Below, in pieces: positions 21,001 through 30,000 of a stretch of DNA of 64,000 nucleotides. This DNA comes from an uncultured delta proteobacterium. Its GTDB lineage: Bacteria; Desulfobacterota; WTBG01. The stretch lies in the NCBI GenBank assembly GCA_963793865.1, contig CAWCBP010000014.1, positions 192,001 to 256,000 of the forward strand. Direction: 5' to 3'. The position numbers are program-made. Every line of letters starts with the position of its first letter. Position 1 is the stretch's first letter.

Positions 21001-24000
21001 CTTCCCGGGTTACTTTGGTGGCCGGATCAACATCAAGCCACGACGTTCCCATATGCACCGGGTTGGTCGTATCATCAAGCGGCGGCAGGTCATCGTCGGG
21101 GATGAAGGATAATTGTTTCCCCTGGGAAGGTAGCTGTCCCGCTCATCCTGTGATAAAACGTCATTGAGCACGGTGTCATAGACTGTCCTGCTGCACATCC
21201 GCGCAGATACCCTGCGGCTCATTGTTGCTGAATCCAAAGGCATCATCGACGCTGTCCTTGGATTTGAATTTAGCCAGTATCACACCATTGATGCTTGACG
21301 GTGCGTCCGGGTAAGTGCTCATGTCTTCCGGGACTATGGTATAAAAGGGCTGTATCCAGTTTTCCGCAGCATTCAGCGCCGCGTAGGATCCGCTGAATTC
21401 CAGCAGCGGCAGGTTGGTGGCCCTGATATCGATATCCTCTGACTCAGTGCGGGTCATGGTCTTCTGGGCATTCCAGACCAGGCAATCATCATATGCCCCG
21501 GCCAGCTCATACCCTGTTTTGCCGGTGTCGACATCACAGGTATAGGTCGGCGGTCTCTTGCACTGGCTATTCAGTGCCATGAGAAGGAGAATCTGCATTC
21601 CTATCAATACATACCTCATATTTCACCCCTTTGACGTTGTGATTGAACATGCTTTGTTGTTTATATATAAACCATAACTGTTTTTTTTGCTACATTGCCG
21701 ACATATTTATTTTGTGAAGATACATCAGTTAACTCGAACTAATAGTGCACCTACCGTTAAGCAGAGGGGAGGGGTTTTTCAAAACATTCGTGCCGAAATC
21801 AACTTTGAACCGCGCTGCATCAGTCCCATCCACATTGCCTTTCTTTTCTTCTCGGGGCGAGCGAGTGTGTTAATCAGCATGGATGTTGCACATAATAAAG
21901 ATGGACCATACCATATCAAGGAGCTGTGACCACAAACCCTTCCCAGATTACTTCTCCGGTTTCACTCTGGGAATCCGTGACCACACACCGAATGGCATAG
22001 GTGCCCGCATCCCCGCTTCCGGTGTTCCACTGCCAGCTGGCGCTGTTTCCACCCACCGCGGTCCAGCCGGGATCAGATGCTTTCTTGATGGACCACTGAT
22101 AGGCGTAGGCGGGCTTGCCTCCGGTTACGTGTGAACTAAAGGTTACACTCCCTCCCGCCACAATAGATTCGGTTTCCCCGTTGGTAAGGTATACCAGGGG
22201 TTTCACGATGGCATTGAGCACATGGGAGGCGAGCATCTGGCCTACCCGGGGATCATCATTGGGTGGAATGTAAATCTCCCATGTTCCCGTATATTGATCC
22301 TGCACCGGGCCATTTGGATCCGGAGGGTCGCCGGCGGGATCATAACCCAAATGTCCGTATGCACTCATGTCAAAGCATAGCGATGGGTCCAGATCGCTCA
22401 TGCCCTGATTGATGGGCGTCTGCCGCACCGGCGGATACGGCATCAATGGATCACCGCATCCTCCCATCTCAAAGCAGCACTCAGGTTTTGAGGTCTGAGT
22501 TTCAACACCGTTGGTCAGGGCATTGCCGGCCGGGCTTCGGTTATCACGTATTATTTCATTGTCGCTGAACGTGCCGGAGAGCTGTTTTAGGGTAAGGGTG
22601 CCGGATGCTGTGTTCCCCTCTATCCATTTTATGACCGCTGTTGCATGGGATGACTGACCGGTTAGCGTTGCCCCCGCATGAAAAACTGCTGTACCGGTAT
22701 CGTAATTCAGTTTCCACTCCCCACAGTCGGTATCAACCCAGATACCCCAGTAATCGGCAAAGGGGTGACCCACGGTGGGATACCTGACGTAATCACCAGT
22801 ACCCCACTTGGCCCAGTTCTTATACCCGATCTCTCTGCCGGCAATCTGGTTATATATCTCAACCATGTTAAGGGCAGTATCGGTTACCACTTGGGGAAAC
22901 CCGATTGCGATATGCTGAACGCCCCGATCCTTAAGATATTCCAGGGCATCCCAGTAGCGATAGCCCCACTCTTCACCGGGCAGCACCTTATCAGTCTGGT
23001 AAAGCCAGGCGTGTCCATAGGATTCACCGCGCATATCCCGGTTTCGTTCCTCCAGCCCGTTTTCAGGATTCACCATCTGGATACCCCCATAGGCTCCGAT
23101 AATATTGTCCGGGTCCATGGTAGAATGACGGCTGAGTAGCTCTGCCTTCACATTCTTATTGATAATCTGGGTATCATTCACCTTCGGATCAAACCACTCG
23201 TTATAATCGTGGAGGGCATGATTGAAGAGGATGACGCCCGTATCGGCAACAGAAACGGTGCTTGAGAAAGCACCCTCAATGGCTTCCACATTGAGGTCAG
23301 TCACCACCGGATCCGTTACAATGGGGTTGGGACTGCCGTTGAGCAGCACGTGGCTGTCCACAGTCGGATCCTTGAGAACACGGGTCCATCCCGCAGGTTC
23401 TGTAGGATAGGAACGCTCCATCAGGTTGCTGTAATCATTTACCCAGAGCAAAGGGATGGAGATGCCGTATTTGGTTTTCCAGGCATCAAGGGTGCGCTTG
23501 GTCATCTCCACCACGTCGTAGGATTTGGAGAAGCGCGGCCCCCCCACCGTCCAGTCAACCATGATGATCCGGTAGGCGCCCTTTTTCAGCAATCGCTCCG
23601 CCGGGCCGTCTACGTTGTACCGATCCGGATTACAACCGTCCCAGGGCCCGCCTGTTGCACCTTCGCCGCAGTAGGTGCAGTCGGGATAGGCCCCTGCCGG
23701 GTCAGCCAACCCGTCGGGTCCATAGTAAATGAACCGCGGGTAGGCATAATGATCCACACGGTCAGCGGCCATGTAACCCGCCCAATCCACCTCGAAGTTG
23801 AGACCATAAGTATTTGCGTCGAGCGCAGCCTTCATATCCAGCAGCTGCTGGTCAGAAAGAGAGTGAAAGGGATCAGTTCCGCCAATCCGTTCGTACTCGA
23901 ACTCATACATCCTGATAAACCTGGCCGCAAACTCCCCAAATGAGGGATCCAGCACCAGGGGCCATAAGGGTGGGTTCCAGATGACAAGCTTGTACACCGA

Positions 24001-27000: not shown

Positions 27001-30000
27001 CACTGGTGGCCCCATCCTCCCCAGTATTTCCCGCCCGGCTGCATGGTGGATATCGCTGAAAAGGTTAAGAAGGTCACCTCGCTGCCGGTTATTGCCGTTG
27101 GCAGGCTCCATCATCCGGAAACAGCCGAAAGGGCACTGGCGGAAGGCAAGGCCGACTTTATTGCCATCGGCAGGGGACTGTTATCCGAGCCTGACTGGGT
27201 CAATAAAATTGCGGACGGGAAGACCGATGAGCTGATTCCCTGTTTAGGGTGTCACGAAGGGTGCAAGTGGCAGATGATTGTCGGACAGCCGACAAGTTGT
27301 GCCATAAATCCTTCCTGCGGCCATGAAATCGAGTGGGCACTTACCCCTCTTGCCGAGAAAAGGTCTCTTCTGGTGGTCGGCGGCGGTCCGGCCGGGATTG
27401 AGGCGGCACGGGTTGGCGCAGCGCGCGGGTTTGATGTTACGCTCTGGGAAGCTTCAGACCGGCTGGGCGGAAATCTCTGGCCTGCGGCACAACCGGATTT
27501 CAAGCGTGATATTTCTGATTACATACACTACCTCTCAGGACTTGTGAAGCGGTTGCCGATCAATCTCGTTCTTAATAAAAAGGCGACTGCCGAAGATGTC
27601 CGAAACTGTGGCGCAGATTATGTCGTTCTTGCGACCGGGGCACAGATGGAGAAGCCGCCTTTTGATAATGGAGCAGGGGAGAAGGTGCTCACGGTGATCC
27701 AGGTGCTGAAAGGTTTGGAACCCCGGGGCGAGAGGGTGCTTATCATGGGGGGAGGGGTGATCGGCTGTGAGACGGCCCTCTACCTGGCACGCCGGGGTAA
27801 GCAGGTTACCATCAGCACCAGGCGGGATAAAAGTGCACTGGCGGAAGATCTCTACGATCACAATAATCACGATGTGCTGCTCATGATGATAAAAGCTGCT
27901 GACATCACGGTGCTTTCAGAGGCCGTCCCCGTAAGGGTGGAGAACGATGGTGTGGTAATCAACAAAGCCGGCGCCGAAACAAAAATCCCGGTTGACAGCC
28001 TTGTGTTTTCCGGTCGGATGATACCGGAAAATGGGCTTGGCAAATCTCTTGCGAACATGCATAATGTTTTCAGCGTTGGCGACTGCGTAAACCCGGAAAG
28101 AATTATGGAAGCTGTTTGGGCGGCTTTTAAGACGGTGAGAGAAATCGAACCGTAAAACAGGACCTTTATGCGCTCCCCTAAGATTGCCATGCTCGCACCC
28201 CTGTGGGTGTTGATGTTCCTCTGGCTTGCTCCGGCCGCATACACCATGCGGATGCAAGGAGTGCGTCCCTCCCTGTGATTCTTATCTACATGTAGAGGCA
28301 ACCAGCCGGTTGCTCCTACGAAGCAGATATTATTTTTGTGTTACCCCCCTGCCCCTGCGGGTCGCCACGAAGCATGAAAATATATAATTCCCCTCTCCCC
28401 GCGGGAGACTGTGTCATAATGGGTGAAATGCTTTGTTTGTCATTCTGAACGCAGTGAAGAATCTCATAGAATCAACTAATTAGAAAATGGAGATTCTTCG
28501 GCTTCGCCTCAGAATGACATTGTGACACAGGCTCGCGGTGGGAGAGGGTTAGGGTGAGGGGGTATGCTAAATCTATTTTCGAATCACAGTAATACCTCTA
28601 TAGTGCACCTGATAAATCTGTGGGATGGTTTATTAATAGGAAGCTCACTGCATCAAACCATCCATTCAACACAGGAGGGAATAGGGATGAGATATGCGTT
28701 TTGTACAAAGCTGAGTAAAAGTTTGACATGGCTGGCGTCATTGGTGATGACTTTTTGCTGGACCGTTTCTGTATATGCAATTTCCAATATGAAAAGAATG
28801 CGGTCTCTCATTTATTGTAACATGGTTATGCTTATGCTTGTAGTGATGTTTGGGTGTGTGCCATACCCGGAGAGTGGACCGGCTGATCTTGTAATCAAGA
28901 ATGCGAAAGTTGTTACGGTTGATAAGGAAAATCCGGAAGCCGAGGCCGTCGCGTTTGTTGGAGAGTTTATTGTAGACGTAACATCCAACAGGAACATTGC
29001 AAAGTACATTCAAAAAGGAAAGACGGAAGTTATTGATGCCGGAGGGAGACTTGTCATACCCGGATTCAATGATGCTCATGCGCATTTTTCATCCGTTAAC
29101 CTTGATTTCATTGACCTCCGGTATATCACCGATCCGAGTATCATTACAGAAAAGGTGCGGGACAAGATAGCTGTATCACAACCGGGAGAGCTTATCATGG
29201 GTGGTAACTGGGACCACGAGATGTTTCCCGACAAAAGGTGGCCAACCAAAGAGTTAATCGACCCTGTTTCTCCTGACAACCCCGTGTTACTCTTCCGGAC
29301 AGATTACCACTCGGTATTGGTTAACAGCTATGTGTTAAGGAATTCGGGAATAACCAAGGATACGCCCGATCCGGAGGGCGGAGAGATTCAGAGAGACAGC
29401 ATGACGGGAGAGCCTACAGGTATACTCAAGGAATCGGCAAAGGGGTTGATTAAAACCGGGGAAATACCGGTTGAAAGAACCCCTGAAGAGATTAAGCAAC
29501 GCCTGATCGAAGGTTGGAAGGCAGCATTTAGGATGGCTGCTGAACTTGGTGTGACAAGTATTCAGCATCCGGGAGAGGGAGACGCTGAATTTTACCAGGA
29601 ATGGTTTGACCAGGGAATGCTCACGTGCCGGATAGATGTTGCCGGTCGGCTCACTAACGATACAGACGCCCTGGAAAAATACGATGAGTTGAGAGAGAAA
29701 TATCCACCCGAAGGAAACTGGATCCGTTTCGGATACCTGAAAGGGCAAATTGATGGGACACTGGGTTCAGCTACCTGTATGCTTTATGAACCGTTCATCG
29801 GTGACCCGGATAATACAGGTTTATCTCAGATGACCTATGAAGAGCTGGAACAGAAAGTGGTGACATGCGACAGTATGGGATTCCAGATCGGAATACATGC
29901 CATTGGCGATAAGGCCAATACCTGGATCCTGAATGCTTTTGAAAAAGCAGCCGAAGCAAACGGCTGGAGGGATAGCAGACACCGTAGTGAACACGCTCAG

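What a model noticed while it worked through the whole genome (the two positions that open the first line are those of the whole stretch)
21916..28155. A large uncharacterised family of secreted/lipoprotein ferrochelatase-fold proteins is genetically coupled to FDBR genes [...]
g03680 (C14:213916-216402), g01421 (C2:142307-144046), g02805 (C8:674174-676438) and g02503 (C8:355169-358261) share a ~560-aa core (55-59% identical) with no Pfam/NCBIfam/Swiss-Prot match; >680 metagenomic relatives are all 'hypothetical'. A confident model shows the core is a ferrochelatase (class II chelatase) fold. All four are exported: two start with a lipoprotein signal, g03680 carries a signal peptide plus two Cys-bracketed dockerin-like repeats, and g02503 adds an N-terminal tetrahaem c module and PKD-type domains. 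On C14 g03680 follows a TetR gene (g03681) and faces, divergently, FDBR paralog g03682 and the OYE/2,4-dienoyl-reductase-type g03683 (BilR/cinnamate-reductase-like). In a [...]
Evidence so far: blastp cluster; MAFFT of the four, 55-59% id. find_homologous_proteins: 687 clusters at E<=1e-10, best 120 listed, none with a family name, one with a weak PF00762 tag. AlphaFold2 with 31-row alignment: pLDDT 81.5, pTM 0.84; Foldseek/PDB: the best 43 listed hits are all ferrochelatase/CpfC (human 2po5 E 2e-8; LmCpfC 9f0g TM(target) 0.76), next CbiK 1qgo. Sub-threshold Pfam Ferrochelatase for g01421 (17 bits) and for a further protein g01772 (24.5 bits). N-termini, CxxCH and dockerin-like motifs. Gene order on C14. 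search_genomes: 26/42 class genomes at E<=1e-150, 26/33 genomes of f1,f2,f3,f5 (G000 included) and 0/9 of f4,f6 versus PF05996 32/42 with the same 0/9. Linked places read from call [...]
(Added by a program. Inside this text positions count along the whole contig: contig position 192,001 is position 1 of the stretch shown here. "Call 12" and the like, gene names such as g00115 and contig names such as C1 are that model's own, and its searches are not shown. The text may have been shortened before it was handed on; [...] marks where a part breaks off. The agent that wrote the report below was given it as the finding of a first reader that could run no searches.)

Follow-up and report, generated by a model that had tools for sequence, protein, structure and literature searches.

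The report
Exported ferrochelatase relative beside bilin-reductase genes
An uncultured sediment bacterium exports a remodelled relative of the enzyme that puts iron into haem; its gene family repeatedly sits beside bilin-reductase-like genes, which suggests that it captures or processes haem- or chlorophyll-type pigments outside the cell.

Summary
Window 21916-24402 (-) encodes an 828-aa exported protein: signal peptide, dockerin-like pair, 637-aa core, Ig/PKD tail. It has three paralogues in the genome and no Pfam or NCBIfam match. An AlphaFold model (pLDDT 87.3) matches coproporphyrin ferrochelatase at Z 24.6 over about 300 of 309 residues. New here: a profile-profile comparison shows real homology (96.7%). 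The pocket is rebuilt in the same way in 191 members. The distal metal-binding His is kept, the proximal Tyr/Met position is His, and the catalytic Glu is Leu. I therefore read it as a (metallo)tetrapyrrole binder or handler, not a haem synthase.

FDBR linkage is real but confined to one lineage. An FDBR gene lies within 500 bp in 11 of 50 Thermodesulfobacteriota loci and within 10 kb in 21 of 50. Chance placement would give about 1% and 7%. In gamma/alpha loci the family and FDBR only co-occur in the same genome.

In the window, tetR-family gene and FDBR-OYE diverge from one operator pair, which is conserved in a relative. Other neighbours point to a hydrophobic substrate, possibly a non-tetrapyrrole one: an AmeABCD-like RND cassette, SCP2-like and geranylgeranyl-reductase-like genes.

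The scan had already found the same His/His/Leu pocket in a paralogue elsewhere in this genome.

The parts
21916..24402 (-). P0001, an 828-aa exported ferrochelatase-homologue family member (whole gene)
   Evidence: ORF and translation. No Pfam or NCBIfam family. Three paralogues in the genome.
24337..24402 (-). Sec-type signal peptide (residues 1-22, MMMKLLLVLAGLLLFAVTPVMA)
   Evidence: Read directly from the translation. Of 115 full-length relatives, 94 carry a signal-like or lipobox N-terminus.
24109..24336 (-). Two Cys-bracketed dockerin-like Ca-loop repeats (residues 23-98)
   Evidence: This stretch has no Pfam hit of its own. It aligns to P0006 residues 111-176, and that stretch passes PF00404 Dockerin_1 at 25.2 bits against a cut-off of 22.9. 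The module occurs at 69 places in the genome at E<=1e-8.
22198..24108 (-). 637-aa ferrochelatase-homologous core (residues 99-735). Pocket residues: His109, His395, Leu511, Glu515.
   Evidence: AF2 pLDDT 87.3. Foldseek top 44 hits are all ferrochelatase/CpfC. VIA Z 24.6. hhalign 96.7%. Conservation in 191 sequences.
22483..22719 (-). Inserted small beta domain (residues about 562-640). It is absent from the C2 paralogue and occurs in unrelated multidomain proteins.
   Evidence: tblastn gap in the C2 paralogue. Separate hits to query positions 464-540 in other proteins. Strands at model residues 464-532.
21919..22197 (-). C-terminal Ig/PKD-like domain (residues 736-828)
   Evidence: phmmer against PDB: 9d7z_J Ig-like domain, E 0.0026, residues 743-811. 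The C8a paralogue has PKD at 20.7 bits, below the cut-off.
24471..25133 (-). TetR-family regulator, 68 bp upstream of P0001 on the same strand
   Evidence: PF00440, 55.1 bits. A 78%-identical orthologue sits in the same position in L006.
25186..25249 (.). Operator-like pair: perfect palindrome TAGAACATGTTCTA at 25236-25249 and a 2-mismatch copy at 25186-25199, in the divergent tetR/FDBR intergenic region
   Evidence: 2 matches in the window and 0 of 100 shuffles reach 2. The same pair at the same 50-bp spacing is in L006 at 8679-8742.
25351..26059 (+). FDBR paralogue. The ATG at 25351 has a good RBS. One extra T at 25364 shifts the frame, and the ORF from the internal ATG at 25415 gives 214 aa.
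   Evidence: PF05996, 67.4 bits. Homologues are 235 aa and start MKTI..YTERIIE. The two frames are shown. Contigs of runs X3 and X4 lack the extra base.
26197..28155 (+). OYE/FadH-type Fe-S flavoenzyme (2,4-dienoyl-CoA-reductase-like), downstream of the FDBR gene
   Evidence: PF00724 204.7 bits and PF07992 93.7 bits. NCBIfam: bili_reduct_long 382, BaiCD 378, mycofactocin OYE 374, all below their cut-offs.
20465..21619 (-). Unknown lipoprotein-like gene downstream of P0001, split here into two ORFs (cluster c88). It is syntenic in L006.
   Evidence: No Pfam family.
18675..20510 (-). Double alpha/beta-hydrolase (Abhydrolase_5) with a CFI-box-CTERM-like tail. Single-domain relatives recur beside family genes in 10 other loci.
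   Evidence: PF12695, 274.5 bits. NF041770 at 38.2 bits against a cut-off of 40. Cluster 5 occurs in 11 loci including the window.
16365..18319 (-). Second OYE/FadH-type gene, split into two overlapping ORFs. It is intact in L006.
   Evidence: The L006 copy at 14614-16560 is 67% identical to P0004.

Best explanation
P0001 and its family are extracytoplasmic descendants of ferrochelatase. They are secreted, lipid-anchored or dockerin-tethered. They keep the porphyrin cleft but have exchanged the catalytic set. The distal His is kept (His395). A second His (His109) replaces the proximal Tyr/Met. [quoted passage not shown]

The most likely role is to bind a haem-like or other (metallo)tetrapyrrole at the cell surface or in the periplasm, between the two histidines, and to hand it on or present it for processing. 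Making haem is unlikely.

In the Thermodesulfobacteriota the gene works with cytoplasmic ferredoxin-dependent bilin-reductase paralogues and flavin reductases (OYE/FadH-type, PNPOx-like, flavin-reductase-like). It is often embedded in a trans-envelope transport cassette: HAE3 RND, DUF1302, DUF1329, BNR.

In this window a TetR repressor with a shared operator pair probably switches on tetR-family gene in one direction and FDBR-OYE in the other when the substrate appears.

Shown: export signals, homology, pocket substitutions, gene linkage, the shared operator. Inferred: the ligand, the direction of transport, and the co-regulation.
For: Fold and homology:
- VIA Z 24.6 to LmCpfC, against 15.9 for SirB, 14.9 for FetB and CbiK-P, and 9.6 for the next unrelated fold.
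- hhalign 96.7% over 315 columns against 15 ferrochelatases from the same phylum.
- The motif Y..IGG.DP aligns to B. subtilis HemH residues 44-81.

Pocket:
- His at the AH..P position in 191 of 191 sequences, His at the mGGP position in 181 of 181 non-gap rows, Leu at the catalytic Glu position in 188 of 191, and 59 positions at least 97% identical.

Export.

Precedents: exported class II chelatase relatives that bind metalloporphyrins are D. vulgaris periplasmic CbiK and P. gingivalis FetB (PMC13065792, passages read).

Linkage:
- FDBR lies within 500 bp, 3 kb and 10 kb in 11, 15 and 21 of 50 delta loci (16 of 25 MAGs). Random placement in G000 gives 1.2, 2.8 and 7.1%.
- There are three arrangements and two FDBR subfamilies.
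- PF05996 occurs in 19 of 28 family-bearing gamma/alpha/spirochaete genomes, against 0 of 200 other genomes of that class.

Shared operator pair, conserved in L006.

Tetrapyrrole-type genes elsewhere in the window: a HemN/ChuW-like radical SAM gene, a BchN/BchB-like pair, an FDBR pair and a BchE-like gene.

The C8b paralogue is fused to four CxxCH haem motifs. A second ferrochelatase-like family lies beside family genes in 3 loci.
Against: - No ligand was tested, and no model coordinates were available, so the His-His geometry is inferred from alignment only.
- The equivalence of the mGGP Met with B. subtilis Tyr13 and human Met76 is recalled, not taken from a call.
- Three of the four paralogues in G000 have no FDBR or haem gene within about 8 kb.
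- In gamma/alpha loci there is no adjacency (0 of 26 within 3 kb). Within one order, 14 of 18 family-bearing genomes have no FDBR.
- Many neighbours fit a hydrophobic non-tetrapyrrole substrate: an AmeABCD-like HAE3 cassette, an SCP2-like protein, a geranylgeranyl-reductase-like flavoenzyme, SDRs, alpha/beta hydrolases, a Rieske/VanA-type oxygenase whose best match is a sterol monooxygenase, and FAD_binding_4.
- The gamma FDBRs sit with an ethylbenzene-dehydrogenase-like Mo enzyme and a CoA ligase, not with haem oxygenase.
- G000 has no haem oxygenase, so the FDBR paralogues may not act on bilins at all.
- The genomes compared are kin, so the counts overstate independence.
Confidence: 0.5

Rival explanations
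1. The family binds or converts a hydrophobic non-tetrapyrrole substrate (terpenoid, sterol, carotenoid-type polyene or lignin-derived aromatic) and has merely reused the ferrochelatase cleft. The FDBR paralogues, OYE, GGR-like and SDR enzymes reduce C=C bonds of that compound after uptake.
For: - The family gene directly follows an HAE3 RND-DUF1302-DUF1329-BNR cassette in L016, L020, L036, L021 and L045. That cassette is the AmeABCD type, tied to monoterpene metabolism (PMC6394551, passages read) and to fatty-ester use in Pseudomonas (bioRxiv 10.1101/2020.07.04.188060, passages read).
- An SCP2-like carrier travels with the FDBR pairs.
- A flavoenzyme like the geranylgeranyl reductase family scores 74.9 bits.
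- Gamma loci hold FAD_binding_4, DUF1838, and a Rieske/VanA oxygenase whose best match is 4beta-methylsterol monooxygenase.
- The gamma FDBRs sit beside an ethylbenzene-dehydrogenase-like Mo enzyme and an acyl-CoA ligase.
- There is no haem oxygenase in G000.
Against: - Two invariant histidines at the two axial positions of the porphyrin site, with Asp-Pro of the ferrochelatase DPY motif also invariant, are hard to explain for a lipid ligand.
- Four separate families with tetrapyrrole precedents cluster together: ferrochelatase, FDBR, PNPOx/F420-type and OYE.
- BchB/BchN-like, BchE-like and HemN/ChuW-like genes lie in the same window.
- One paralogue is fused to a tetrahaem module.
Confidence: 0.25
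2. The family is still a working metal-tetrapyrrole lyase acting outside the cytoplasm. It would be a dechelatase or transmetallase that strips or swaps the metal of scavenged haem, chlorophyll derivatives or corrinoids, with other residues replacing the lost Glu.
For: - There are 59 positions at least 97% identical across delta, gamma and alpha members that share only about 40% identity. That degree of conservation looks enzymatic.
- Further invariant His and Glu residues exist: core His399, His448, Glu417 and Glu426.
- Exported FetB makes Mn-protoporphyrin (PMC13065792).
- An adjacent MFS transporter in 15 loci is most like the magnetosome transporter MamH, at 159.8 bits against a cut-off of 300.
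- A tetrahaem fusion could supply electrons to reduce ferric haem.
Against: - The Glu of the His/Glu pair is Leu in 188 of 191 sequences. That pair is described as essential for metal binding and deprotonation (PMC7340540).
- No activity data exist.
- The MamH-like match is below its cut-off, and what that transporter carries is not known from any call.
Confidence: 0.15
3. The FDBR adjacency has no functional meaning. Both families are simply abundant in these genomes (7 to 22 FDBR places and 1 to 9 family genes each) and accumulate in the same variable, catabolic parts of the chromosome.
For: - There are 14 FDBR places in G000 and many more in its class.
- Only 1 of the 4 G000 paralogues is FDBR-linked.
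- Gamma and alpha members show no adjacency.
- Kin share synteny by descent.
Against: - Adjacency within 500 bp is about 18 times the random expectation (11 of 50 against 1.2%).
- Same-strand gaps are only 13 to 36 bp in L010, L016, L020, L022 and L036, which implies co-transcription.
- There are three distinct arrangements with two FDBR subfamilies.
- A shared operator pair lies between the divergent units and is conserved in L006.
- The families co-occur in gamma/alpha genomes where FDBR is otherwise not found.
Confidence: 0.1

Closest known systems
Ferrochelatases: coproporphyrin ferrochelatase CpfC/HemH (L. monocytogenes 8aw7/6sv3, B. subtilis 1ak1) and protoporphyrin ferrochelatase (human 1hrk); Pfam PF00762
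   Same: Two-domain class II chelatase fold over nearly the whole enzyme (Z 24.6 and 23.3). Profile-level homology. The distal His, the Y..IGG..P motif and the DP of the DPY motif are kept.
   Different: - About 330 extra residues in insertions, plus a beta domain.
- Exported instead of cytoplasmic or membrane-facing.
- The catalytic Glu is Leu, the neighbouring His is Ser/Thr/Asn, and the proximal Tyr/Met is His.
- Below the Pfam cut-off.
- Six conserved cysteines, fused to dockerin, PKD, TSP3, Lcl_C or tetrahaem modules.
Exported CbiK-type chelatase relatives: Desulfovibrio vulgaris periplasmic CbiK (2xvx/2xvz) and Porphyromonas gingivalis FetB/IhtB (9b86)
   Same: Class II chelatase fold located outside the cytoplasm and reported to bind metalloporphyrins (PMC13065792, passages read). 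This is the nearest precedent for how the family may work.
   Different: Those proteins are about 260-270 aa and belong to the CbiK branch (Z 14.9 against 24.6 for ferrochelatases). No FDBR linkage is described for them in the passages read. The pocket here is His/His/Leu.
Pre-PcyA gene clusters of heterotrophic bacteria (Rockwell et al. 2023, PMC10151467; Frascogna et al. 2026, PMC13446030)
   Same: FDBR genes in non-photosynthetic bacteria, in conserved clusters. FDBR pockets that can take up cyclic tetrapyrroles after single substitutions (abstract and passages read).
   Different: Those clusters hold haem oxygenase, an Fe-S protein, V4R proteins and globins, or a B12-binding protein plus a globin. 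None of these is beside the family genes. No haem oxygenase was found in G000. The word 'Desulfo' does not occur in the 2026 paper.
AmeABCD-type HAE3 RND cassette (Castellaniella defragrans; DUF1302, DUF1329, COG4447/BNR, RND)
   Same: The same four-gene cassette stands directly upstream of the family gene in L016, L020 and L036, partly in L021 and L045, and nearby in L024, L039, L041 and L042.
   Different: The described cassette has no ferrochelatase-like or FDBR gene, and its substrate is monoterpenes (PMC6394551). The window itself has no such cassette next to P0001.

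Membership tests
Ferrochelatase (PF00762; HemH/PpfC/CpfC) | Two-domain class II chelatase fold covering the whole enzyme | tested here: met
   VIA Z 24.6, rmsd 2.9, 302 aligned of 309 (8aw7). Human enzyme Z 23.3-23.4. Foldseek: all 44 hits with E<=1e-3 are ferrochelatases.
Ferrochelatase (PF00762; HemH/PpfC/CpfC) | Sequence match above the Pfam gathering score (27 bits) | tested here: not met
   P0001 has no hit at E<=0.1. The best relatives reach 17 and 19.2 bits. Profile-profile homology is nevertheless 96.7%.
Ferrochelatase (PF00762; HemH/PpfC/CpfC) | Distal metal-binding His (B. subtilis His183, L. monocytogenes His182) | tested here: met
   Core His297, which is His395 of P0001, aligns to the invariant H of AH..P. 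It is present in 191 of 191 sequences.
Ferrochelatase (PF00762; HemH/PpfC/CpfC) | Catalytic Glu paired with that His (Glu264/Glu263) in the DH.E motif | tested here: not met
   The aligned position is Leu (core 413, which is Leu511) in 188 of 191 sequences. The preceding His position is Ser, Asn or Thr.
Ferrochelatase (PF00762; HemH/PpfC/CpfC) | Acts on the cytoplasmic side, in haem synthesis | tested here: not met
   Sec or lipoprotein signals in the four paralogues and in 94 of 115 relatives.
Ferrochelatase (PF00762; HemH/PpfC/CpfC) | Metal insertion into a porphyrin | not testable with these tools
   Needs an enzyme assay.
Exported CbiK-type haem-binding chelatase relatives (CbiK-P, FetB) | Export signal plus a class II chelatase fold | tested here: met
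Exported CbiK-type haem-binding chelatase relatives (CbiK-P, FetB) | Belongs to the CbiK/SirB branch (about 260 aa) | tested here: not met
   Z 14.9 to 9b86 and 2xvz, against 24.6 to CpfC. The core is 637 aa.
Exported CbiK-type haem-binding chelatase relatives (CbiK-P, FetB) | Binds a metalloporphyrin | not testable with these tools
   No coordinates or ligand modelling were available.
Ferredoxin-dependent bilin reductase (PF05996), for the neighbour at 25351-26059 | Pfam match above the cut-off | tested here: met
   67.4 bits against a cut-off of 31. 103 relatives, nearly all 235 aa and tagged PF05996.
Ferredoxin-dependent bilin reductase (PF05996), for the neighbour at 25351-26059 | A source of biliverdin (haem oxygenase) in the genome or cluster | tested here: not met
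   PF01126 has 0 matches in G000, which is 98.6% complete. None was seen among the neighbours.
Ferredoxin-dependent bilin reductase (PF05996), for the neighbour at 25351-26059 | Catalytic Asp/His/Glu set of PcyA or PebS | not tested
   No reference sequence was in hand to map these residues.
Bilirubin reductase BilR (NCBIfam NF045599/NF045592), for the gene at 26197-28155 | Score above the curated cut-off | tested here: not met
   382 bits against 750, and 197 against 425. BaiCD (378) and mycofactocin OYE (374) score the same.
Type I dockerin (PF00404), for residues 23-98 | Pfam match; duplicated Ca-binding loop-helix | tested here: inconclusive
   No Pfam hit for P0001 itself. It aligns at E 1.8e-7 to the P0006 stretch that passes PF00404. 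Binding to a cohesin partner was not tested.

The most novel reading that the evidence does not exclude
These sediment anaerobes run an oxygen-independent salvage or catabolic route for environmental tetrapyrrole pigments, namely haem and chlorophyll-derived phaeopigments.

In this reading a surface-tethered or periplasmic ferrochelatase descendant captures the macrocycle between two histidines. In the cytochrome-fused paralogue it may also reduce the macrocycle. An AmeABCD-like RND system and MFS transporters move it across the envelope. An expanded set of FDBR paralogues then reduces it stepwise without any haem oxygenase. The helpers are SCP2-like carriers, OYE, PNPOx-like and geranylgeranyl-reductase-like flavoenzymes, and nitrogenase-like BchN/BchB homologues.

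That would be a first gene set for anaerobic pigment degradation, and a new, non-bilin chemistry for the FDBR fold.
Probability: 0.2. Interest if true: 0.9.

Novelty: new variant of a known kind. Interest (0 to 1): 0.72.

Why it matters
Ferrochelatase is among the best-studied enzymes of tetrapyrrole metabolism. A large exported sister family with a fixed His/His/Leu pocket appears in no curated family library searched here. It counts hundreds of 90%-identity clusters in sediment and soil Thermodesulfobacteriota and in gamma and alpha proteobacteria.

Its conserved partnership with an unexplained expansion of bilin-reductase paralogues (7 to 22 per genome) occurs in anaerobes that lack haem oxygenase. 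This gives a concrete, testable entry into two open questions. One is what FDBR-fold enzymes do outside photosynthesis. The other is how haem- and chlorophyll-derived pigments are taken up or broken down without oxygen.

If the ligand turns out not to be a tetrapyrrole, the family would instead show a chelatase cleft recruited for a different chemistry.

Tried and rejected
- Sequence against PDB: phmmer of P0001 found only an Ig-like domain. An HMM of the family found B. subtilis ferrochelatase only at E 0.15 over 38 residues.
- ESM Atlas gave no usable hit for the core.
- Model coordinates are not exposed. His-His and Cys-Cys distances could therefore not be measured. Whether the six conserved cysteines form disulfides, or an Fe-S site like that of human ferrochelatase, stays open. 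A Sec signal argues for disulfides.
- Neighbourhoods of the other three G000 paralogues hold no FDBR and no clear haem gene. A PNPOx-like gene beside the C8a copy is the only recurring partner.
- BilR assignment for the OYE gene was rejected, because all scores are far below the cut-offs and tied with BaiCD.
- A pheophorbide-oxygenase reading of the gamma Rieske gene was rejected. It carries VanA_C, with no PaO domain hit, and its best NCBIfam match is a sterol monooxygenase.
- An ABM/IsdG-like reading of the small gamma neighbour c64 rests on 21.9 bits, below the cut-off, with no NCBIfam hit. It was dropped.
- Literature: 'ferrochelatase-like' with 'bilin reductase', Desulfobacterota or Thermodesulfobacteriota gave 67 papers at two or more terms. 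In the 10 listed, neither 'ferrochelatase-like' nor 'bilin reductase' occurs. 'ferrochelatase-like' with periplasmic or signal peptide gave nothing relevant in the 10 listed. The 'M76H' search gave one paper with no structural statement.
- Expression: no RNA holder was listed among 24 runs. Only contigs of DNA runs could be laid.
- Complex prediction and the second structure job were not used. No claim here rests on a protein-protein contact.

Full report
**What is there.**
The flagged stretch holds four genes.
- 21916-24402 (-) encodes P0001, 828 aa.
- 68 bp upstream on the same strand lies a TetR regulator (24471-25133; PF00440, 55 bits).
- Divergent from these lie an FDBR paralogue (ORF 25415-26059; PF05996, 67.4 bits against a cut-off of 31) and an OYE/FadH-type Fe-S flavoenzyme (26197-28155).

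P0001 has no Pfam hit at E<=0.1 and nothing meaningful in NCBIfam. Its layout, read from the translation, is:
- a Sec signal peptide, residues 1-22;
- two Cys-bracketed Ca-loop repeats, residues 23-98;
- a 637-aa core, residues 99-735, with an inserted beta domain at about 562-640;
- an Ig/PKD-like tail (PDB Ig-like domain, E 0.0026).

The N-terminal repeat module recurs at 69 places in the genome. It aligns to the stretch of relative P0006 that passes Pfam Dockerin_1.

**The family.**
A search with the core found 532 clusters at E<=1e-5 among the 7999 candidates scored. None had a functional name. The exhaustive 50%-identity library gave 396 hits at E<=1e-3 but only about ten full-length representatives, and no more distant relatives. 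The family is therefore large but compact and isolated in sequence.

In one-genome-per-species data, 198 places encode a relative. The 79 loci kept come from Thermodesulfobacteriota/'delta proteobacterium' MAGs (50 loci, 25 MAGs) and from gamma and alpha proteobacteria plus one spirochaete (29 loci).

Of 115 full-length relatives, 94 start with a signal-like or lipobox segment. Most of the rest begin inside the core, which suggests truncated gene calls. The C8b paralogue carries four CxxCH motifs.

**Fold and homology.**
AlphaFold2 on a 31-row alignment gave pLDDT 87.3 and pTM 0.85. In Foldseek against the PDB, all 44 hits with E<=1e-3 are ferrochelatases or coproporphyrin ferrochelatases. FetB and periplasmic CbiK follow.

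VIA-align gave these scores:

| Structure | Z | Note |
|---|---|---|
| L. monocytogenes CpfC | 24.6 | rmsd 2.9, 302 of 309 residues aligned |
| Human ferrochelatase | 23.3-23.4 | |
| SirB | 15.9 | |
| FetB, CbiK-P | 14.9 | |
| First unrelated fold | 9.6 | |

I then took 15 genuine ferrochelatases from genomes of the same phylum and compared profiles. hhalign gave probability 96.7%, E 5e-10, over 315 aligned columns. This is homology, not only a shared shape.

About 330 residues of the core are insertions into the roughly 310-residue ferrochelatase frame.

**The pocket.**
The profile alignment gives the mapping below. Core numbering plus 98 gives P0001 numbering.

| Family residue (core / P0001) | Ferrochelatase position |
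|---|---|
| His297 / His395 | invariant His of AH..P, the distal metal-binding His |
| Leu413 / Leu511 | catalytic Glu of DH.E |
| Thr411 | the His of DH.E |
| Glu417 | the second Glu |
| Asp307-Pro308 | DP of the DPY motif |
| His11 / His109 | Met of mGGP |

From memory, the Met of mGGP is the Tyr13 (B. subtilis) and Met76 (human) position.

In 191 family sequences from all lineages the counts are:
- His297 in 191 of 191;
- His11 in 181 of 181 non-gap rows;
- Leu413 in 188 of 191;
- Glu417 in 189 of 191;
- 59 positions at least 97% identical.

[quoted passage not shown] A cleft with His on both faces and no Glu looks built to hold a metallated macrocycle, not to insert metal. An earlier agent of this scan reached the same His/His/Leu reading on the C8b paralogue (e1-5093266). 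I derived it independently for P0001 and for the whole family.

**Linkage to FDBR.**
I built an FDBR HMM from the relatives of the window's gene and from neighbour ORFs, then scanned all six frames of the 79 loci. In three loci (L067, L070, L076) my ORF filter recovered no family gene, so they are left out of the counts.

| FDBR gene within | 50 Thermodesulfobacteriota loci | 26 gamma/alpha/spirochaete loci | Random 2-kb genes in G000 (14 FDBR places) |
|---|---|---|---|
| 500 bp | 11 | 0 | 1.2% |
| 3 kb | 15 | 0 | 2.8% |
| 10 kb | 21 (16 of 25 MAGs) | 1 (L057) | 7.1% |

Many contigs are truncated, so the locus counts are minima.

The pairs occur in three arrangements:
- FDBR immediately downstream on the same strand, with gaps of 13-36 bp in L010, L016, L020, L022 and L036, and 86 and 175 bp in L017 and L045;
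- convergent, in L005, L007 and L009;
- divergent, in the window with L006, and in L034.

Two FDBR subfamilies are involved, often as tandem pairs.

At genome level in the window's class, FDBR is found in 32 of 42 genomes and the family in 27 of 42. All 27 family-positive genomes hold FDBR, 5 have FDBR only, and 10 have neither. This reflects lineage as much as function.

The gamma/alpha result is more telling. PF05996 is found in 19 of 28 family-bearing gamma/alpha/spirochaete genomes, but in 0 of 200 other genomes sampled from that class. Within one order (101 genomes), 18 hold the family, 6 hold FDBR, and 4 hold both. So there is a positive association, but the family does not depend on FDBR.

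**The local switch.**
The 281-bp tetR/FDBR intergenic region holds a perfect palindrome, TAGAACATGTTCTA, at 25236-25249 and a 2-mismatch copy 50 bp upstream. None of 100 shuffles reaches two matches. The same pair at the same spacing lies in the orthologous region of L006. One repressor site set thus lies between tetR-family gene on one side and FDBR-OYE on the other. This fits co-regulation, which remains inferred.

**Other neighbours.**
I clustered 1144 ORFs of the loci and scanned representatives. Recurrent contexts are:
- Type A (L016, L020, L036; partly L021, L045): OYE ... HAE3 RND - DUF1302 - DUF1329 - BNR - family - FDBR - small exported protein - PNPOx-like - flavin-reductase-like - MFS.
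- Type B (L022, L024, L025, L050, L015): NuoE/NuoF-like - ferredoxins - geranylgeranyl-reductase-like flavoenzyme - family. This is followed either by an FDBR pair plus an SCP2-like protein, or by two Tat-signal Cys-rich proteins and a second, membrane-anchored ferrochelatase-like protein (hhalign 93.8% to ferrochelatase).
- Gamma/alpha: FAD_binding_4 - family - DUF1838, or the family with an MFS transporter, HiPIP and a Rieske/VanA oxygenase.

The RND cassette is the AmeABCD type described for monoterpene metabolism (PMC6394551).

The SCP2-like partner of the FDBR pairs is homologous to the one between the two further FDBR-like genes of this window at 55233-58089 (hhalign 98.6%).

The FDBR genes of four gamma/alpha chromosomes were inspected. 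In the three gamma chromosomes the FDBR gene sits beside an ethylbenzene-dehydrogenase-like Mo enzyme and a DsbA-like gene. In two of them (L104, L105) an acyl-CoA ligase, amidohydrolases and an MFS transporter follow. In the third (L103) TonB-dependent receptors follow. In the alpha chromosome (L106) no named partner flanks the FDBR gene, but a TonB-dependent receptor, a DUF1838 gene and the family gene lie 8 to 13 kb away. No haem oxygenase was seen in any of the four.

G000, 98.6% complete, has no haem oxygenase and no ferrochelatase above the cut-off.

**Weighing.**
For a tetrapyrrole ligand:
- homology to ferrochelatase with both axial positions fixed as His;
- exported chelatase-fold precedents that bind metalloporphyrins, namely CbiK-P and FetB (PMC13065792);
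- the tetrahaem fusion in one paralogue;
- several neighbour families with tetrapyrrole precedents;
- a window that also encodes a HemN/ChuW-like radical SAM protein, a BchN/BchB-like nitrogenase-type pair and a BchE-like enzyme;
- FDBR pockets that can take up porphyrins after single substitutions (PMC13446030).

Against it:
- no ligand test;
- many neighbours typical of terpenoid, sterol or aromatic metabolism;
- no biliverdin source;
- three unlinked paralogues in this genome.

A chlorophyll-type substrate, a macrocycle with an isoprenoid tail, would reconcile both sets of neighbours. That is speculation.

My odds are:
- a tetrapyrrole binder or handler that is not a chelatase, 0.5;
- a non-tetrapyrrole hydrophobic substrate, 0.25;
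- a working extracellular dechelatase or transmetallase, 0.15;
- adjacency without function, 0.1.

**Quality note.**
The assembly carries frame-breaking indels in this stretch.
- The FDBR gene has an extra T at 25364. Contigs from two public runs lack it, and without it the gene reads as the 235-aa form seen in relatives.
- The second OYE gene (16365-18319) and the small gene downstream of P0001 (20465-21619) are each split into two ORFs, while L006 has them whole.

**Novelty.**
Exported class II chelatase relatives are known, but from the CbiK branch. I found no paper describing this family or its FDBR partnership. Two searches were made, and only the 10 top-listed papers of each were seen. 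Supplements of the pre-PcyA papers were not opened and might list some of these FDBR sequences.

I class it as a new variant of a known kind, with a 0.2 chance that it marks a categorically new anaerobic pigment pathway.

Noticed in passing
window 25351-25415: The FDBR gene has one extra T at 25364 compared with its relatives. The frame from the RBS-preceded ATG at 25351 therefore breaks after MKTI. Contigs of runs X3 and X4 lack that base. It is either an assembly error or a strain-specific frameshift.
   Followed up: yes
window 16365-18319 and 20465-21619: A second OYE/FadH gene and the small lipoprotein-like gene downstream of P0001 are each split into two ORFs here but are single ORFs in L006. 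This suggests further indel errors in the assembly.
   Followed up: partly
window 47968-50962: A nitrogenase-like pair in a non-phototroph. One is a NifE/BchN-like 417-aa protein. The other is a BchB/BchZ-like 582-aa protein with the PCP_red C-terminal domain (DPOR_BchB 165.8 bits, cut-off 490). No NifH/BchL-like gene was seen directly upstream.
   Followed up: partly
window 55233-60000: An FDBR-like gene, an SCP2-like gene and a second FDBR-like gene, followed by a BchE-like B12-binding radical SAM gene (207.7 bits, cut-off 481). The same FDBR pair plus SCP2-like cassette stands beside family genes in L022, L041, L047 and L058.
   Followed up: partly
window 13965-15251: A HemN-family radical SAM gene that scores about equally as HemW (111 bits) and as the anaerobic haem-degrading ChuW/HutW (102 bits). 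Both scores are below their cut-offs.
   Followed up: no
L024 14620-16065, L025 13808-15250, L050 13911-15362; G000 C4:289414-291042: A second ferrochelatase-like family, distinct from P0001's. The three locus copies have an N-terminal membrane helix (PF00762 20.3 bits; hhalign 93.8% to ferrochelatase). The G000 C4 protein has a signal peptide and starts EKIGVLVLGAG.
   Followed up: partly
G000, 69 places (e.g. C11:64713-73668, C1:113807-134404): The dockerin-like double repeat of P0001 heads many other proteins of this genome. This implies a large surface-tethering system.
   Followed up: partly
L104 8178-13838, L105 3775-9434, L103 5517-8288: In gammaproteobacteria that hold the family, the FDBR homologue lies next to a type II DMSO-reductase-family Mo enzyme (886.8 bits; ethylbenzene-dehydrogenase-like) and a DsbA-like gene. 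In L104 and L105 an acyl-CoA ligase, an Amidohydro_2 gene and an MFS transporter also lie beside it. This is an undescribed FDBR context.
   Followed up: partly
L024 12434-13099 and tandem copies in L015, L023, L025, L040, L050: Two tandem genes directly downstream of the family gene encode 221-aa Cys-rich proteins with a twin-arginine-type signal (RRDF...). They match no Pfam family.
   Followed up: no
L045 3624-4394: The FDBR gene next to the family gene carries one in-frame stop, which splits it into two pieces.
   Followed up: no
L062 8527-9885 and 14 other loci: The MFS transporter that most often neighbours the family gene, in delta and gamma loci alike, is most similar to the magnetosome transporters MamH and MamZ (159.8 and 148.3 bits, below the cut-offs).
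   Followed up: no
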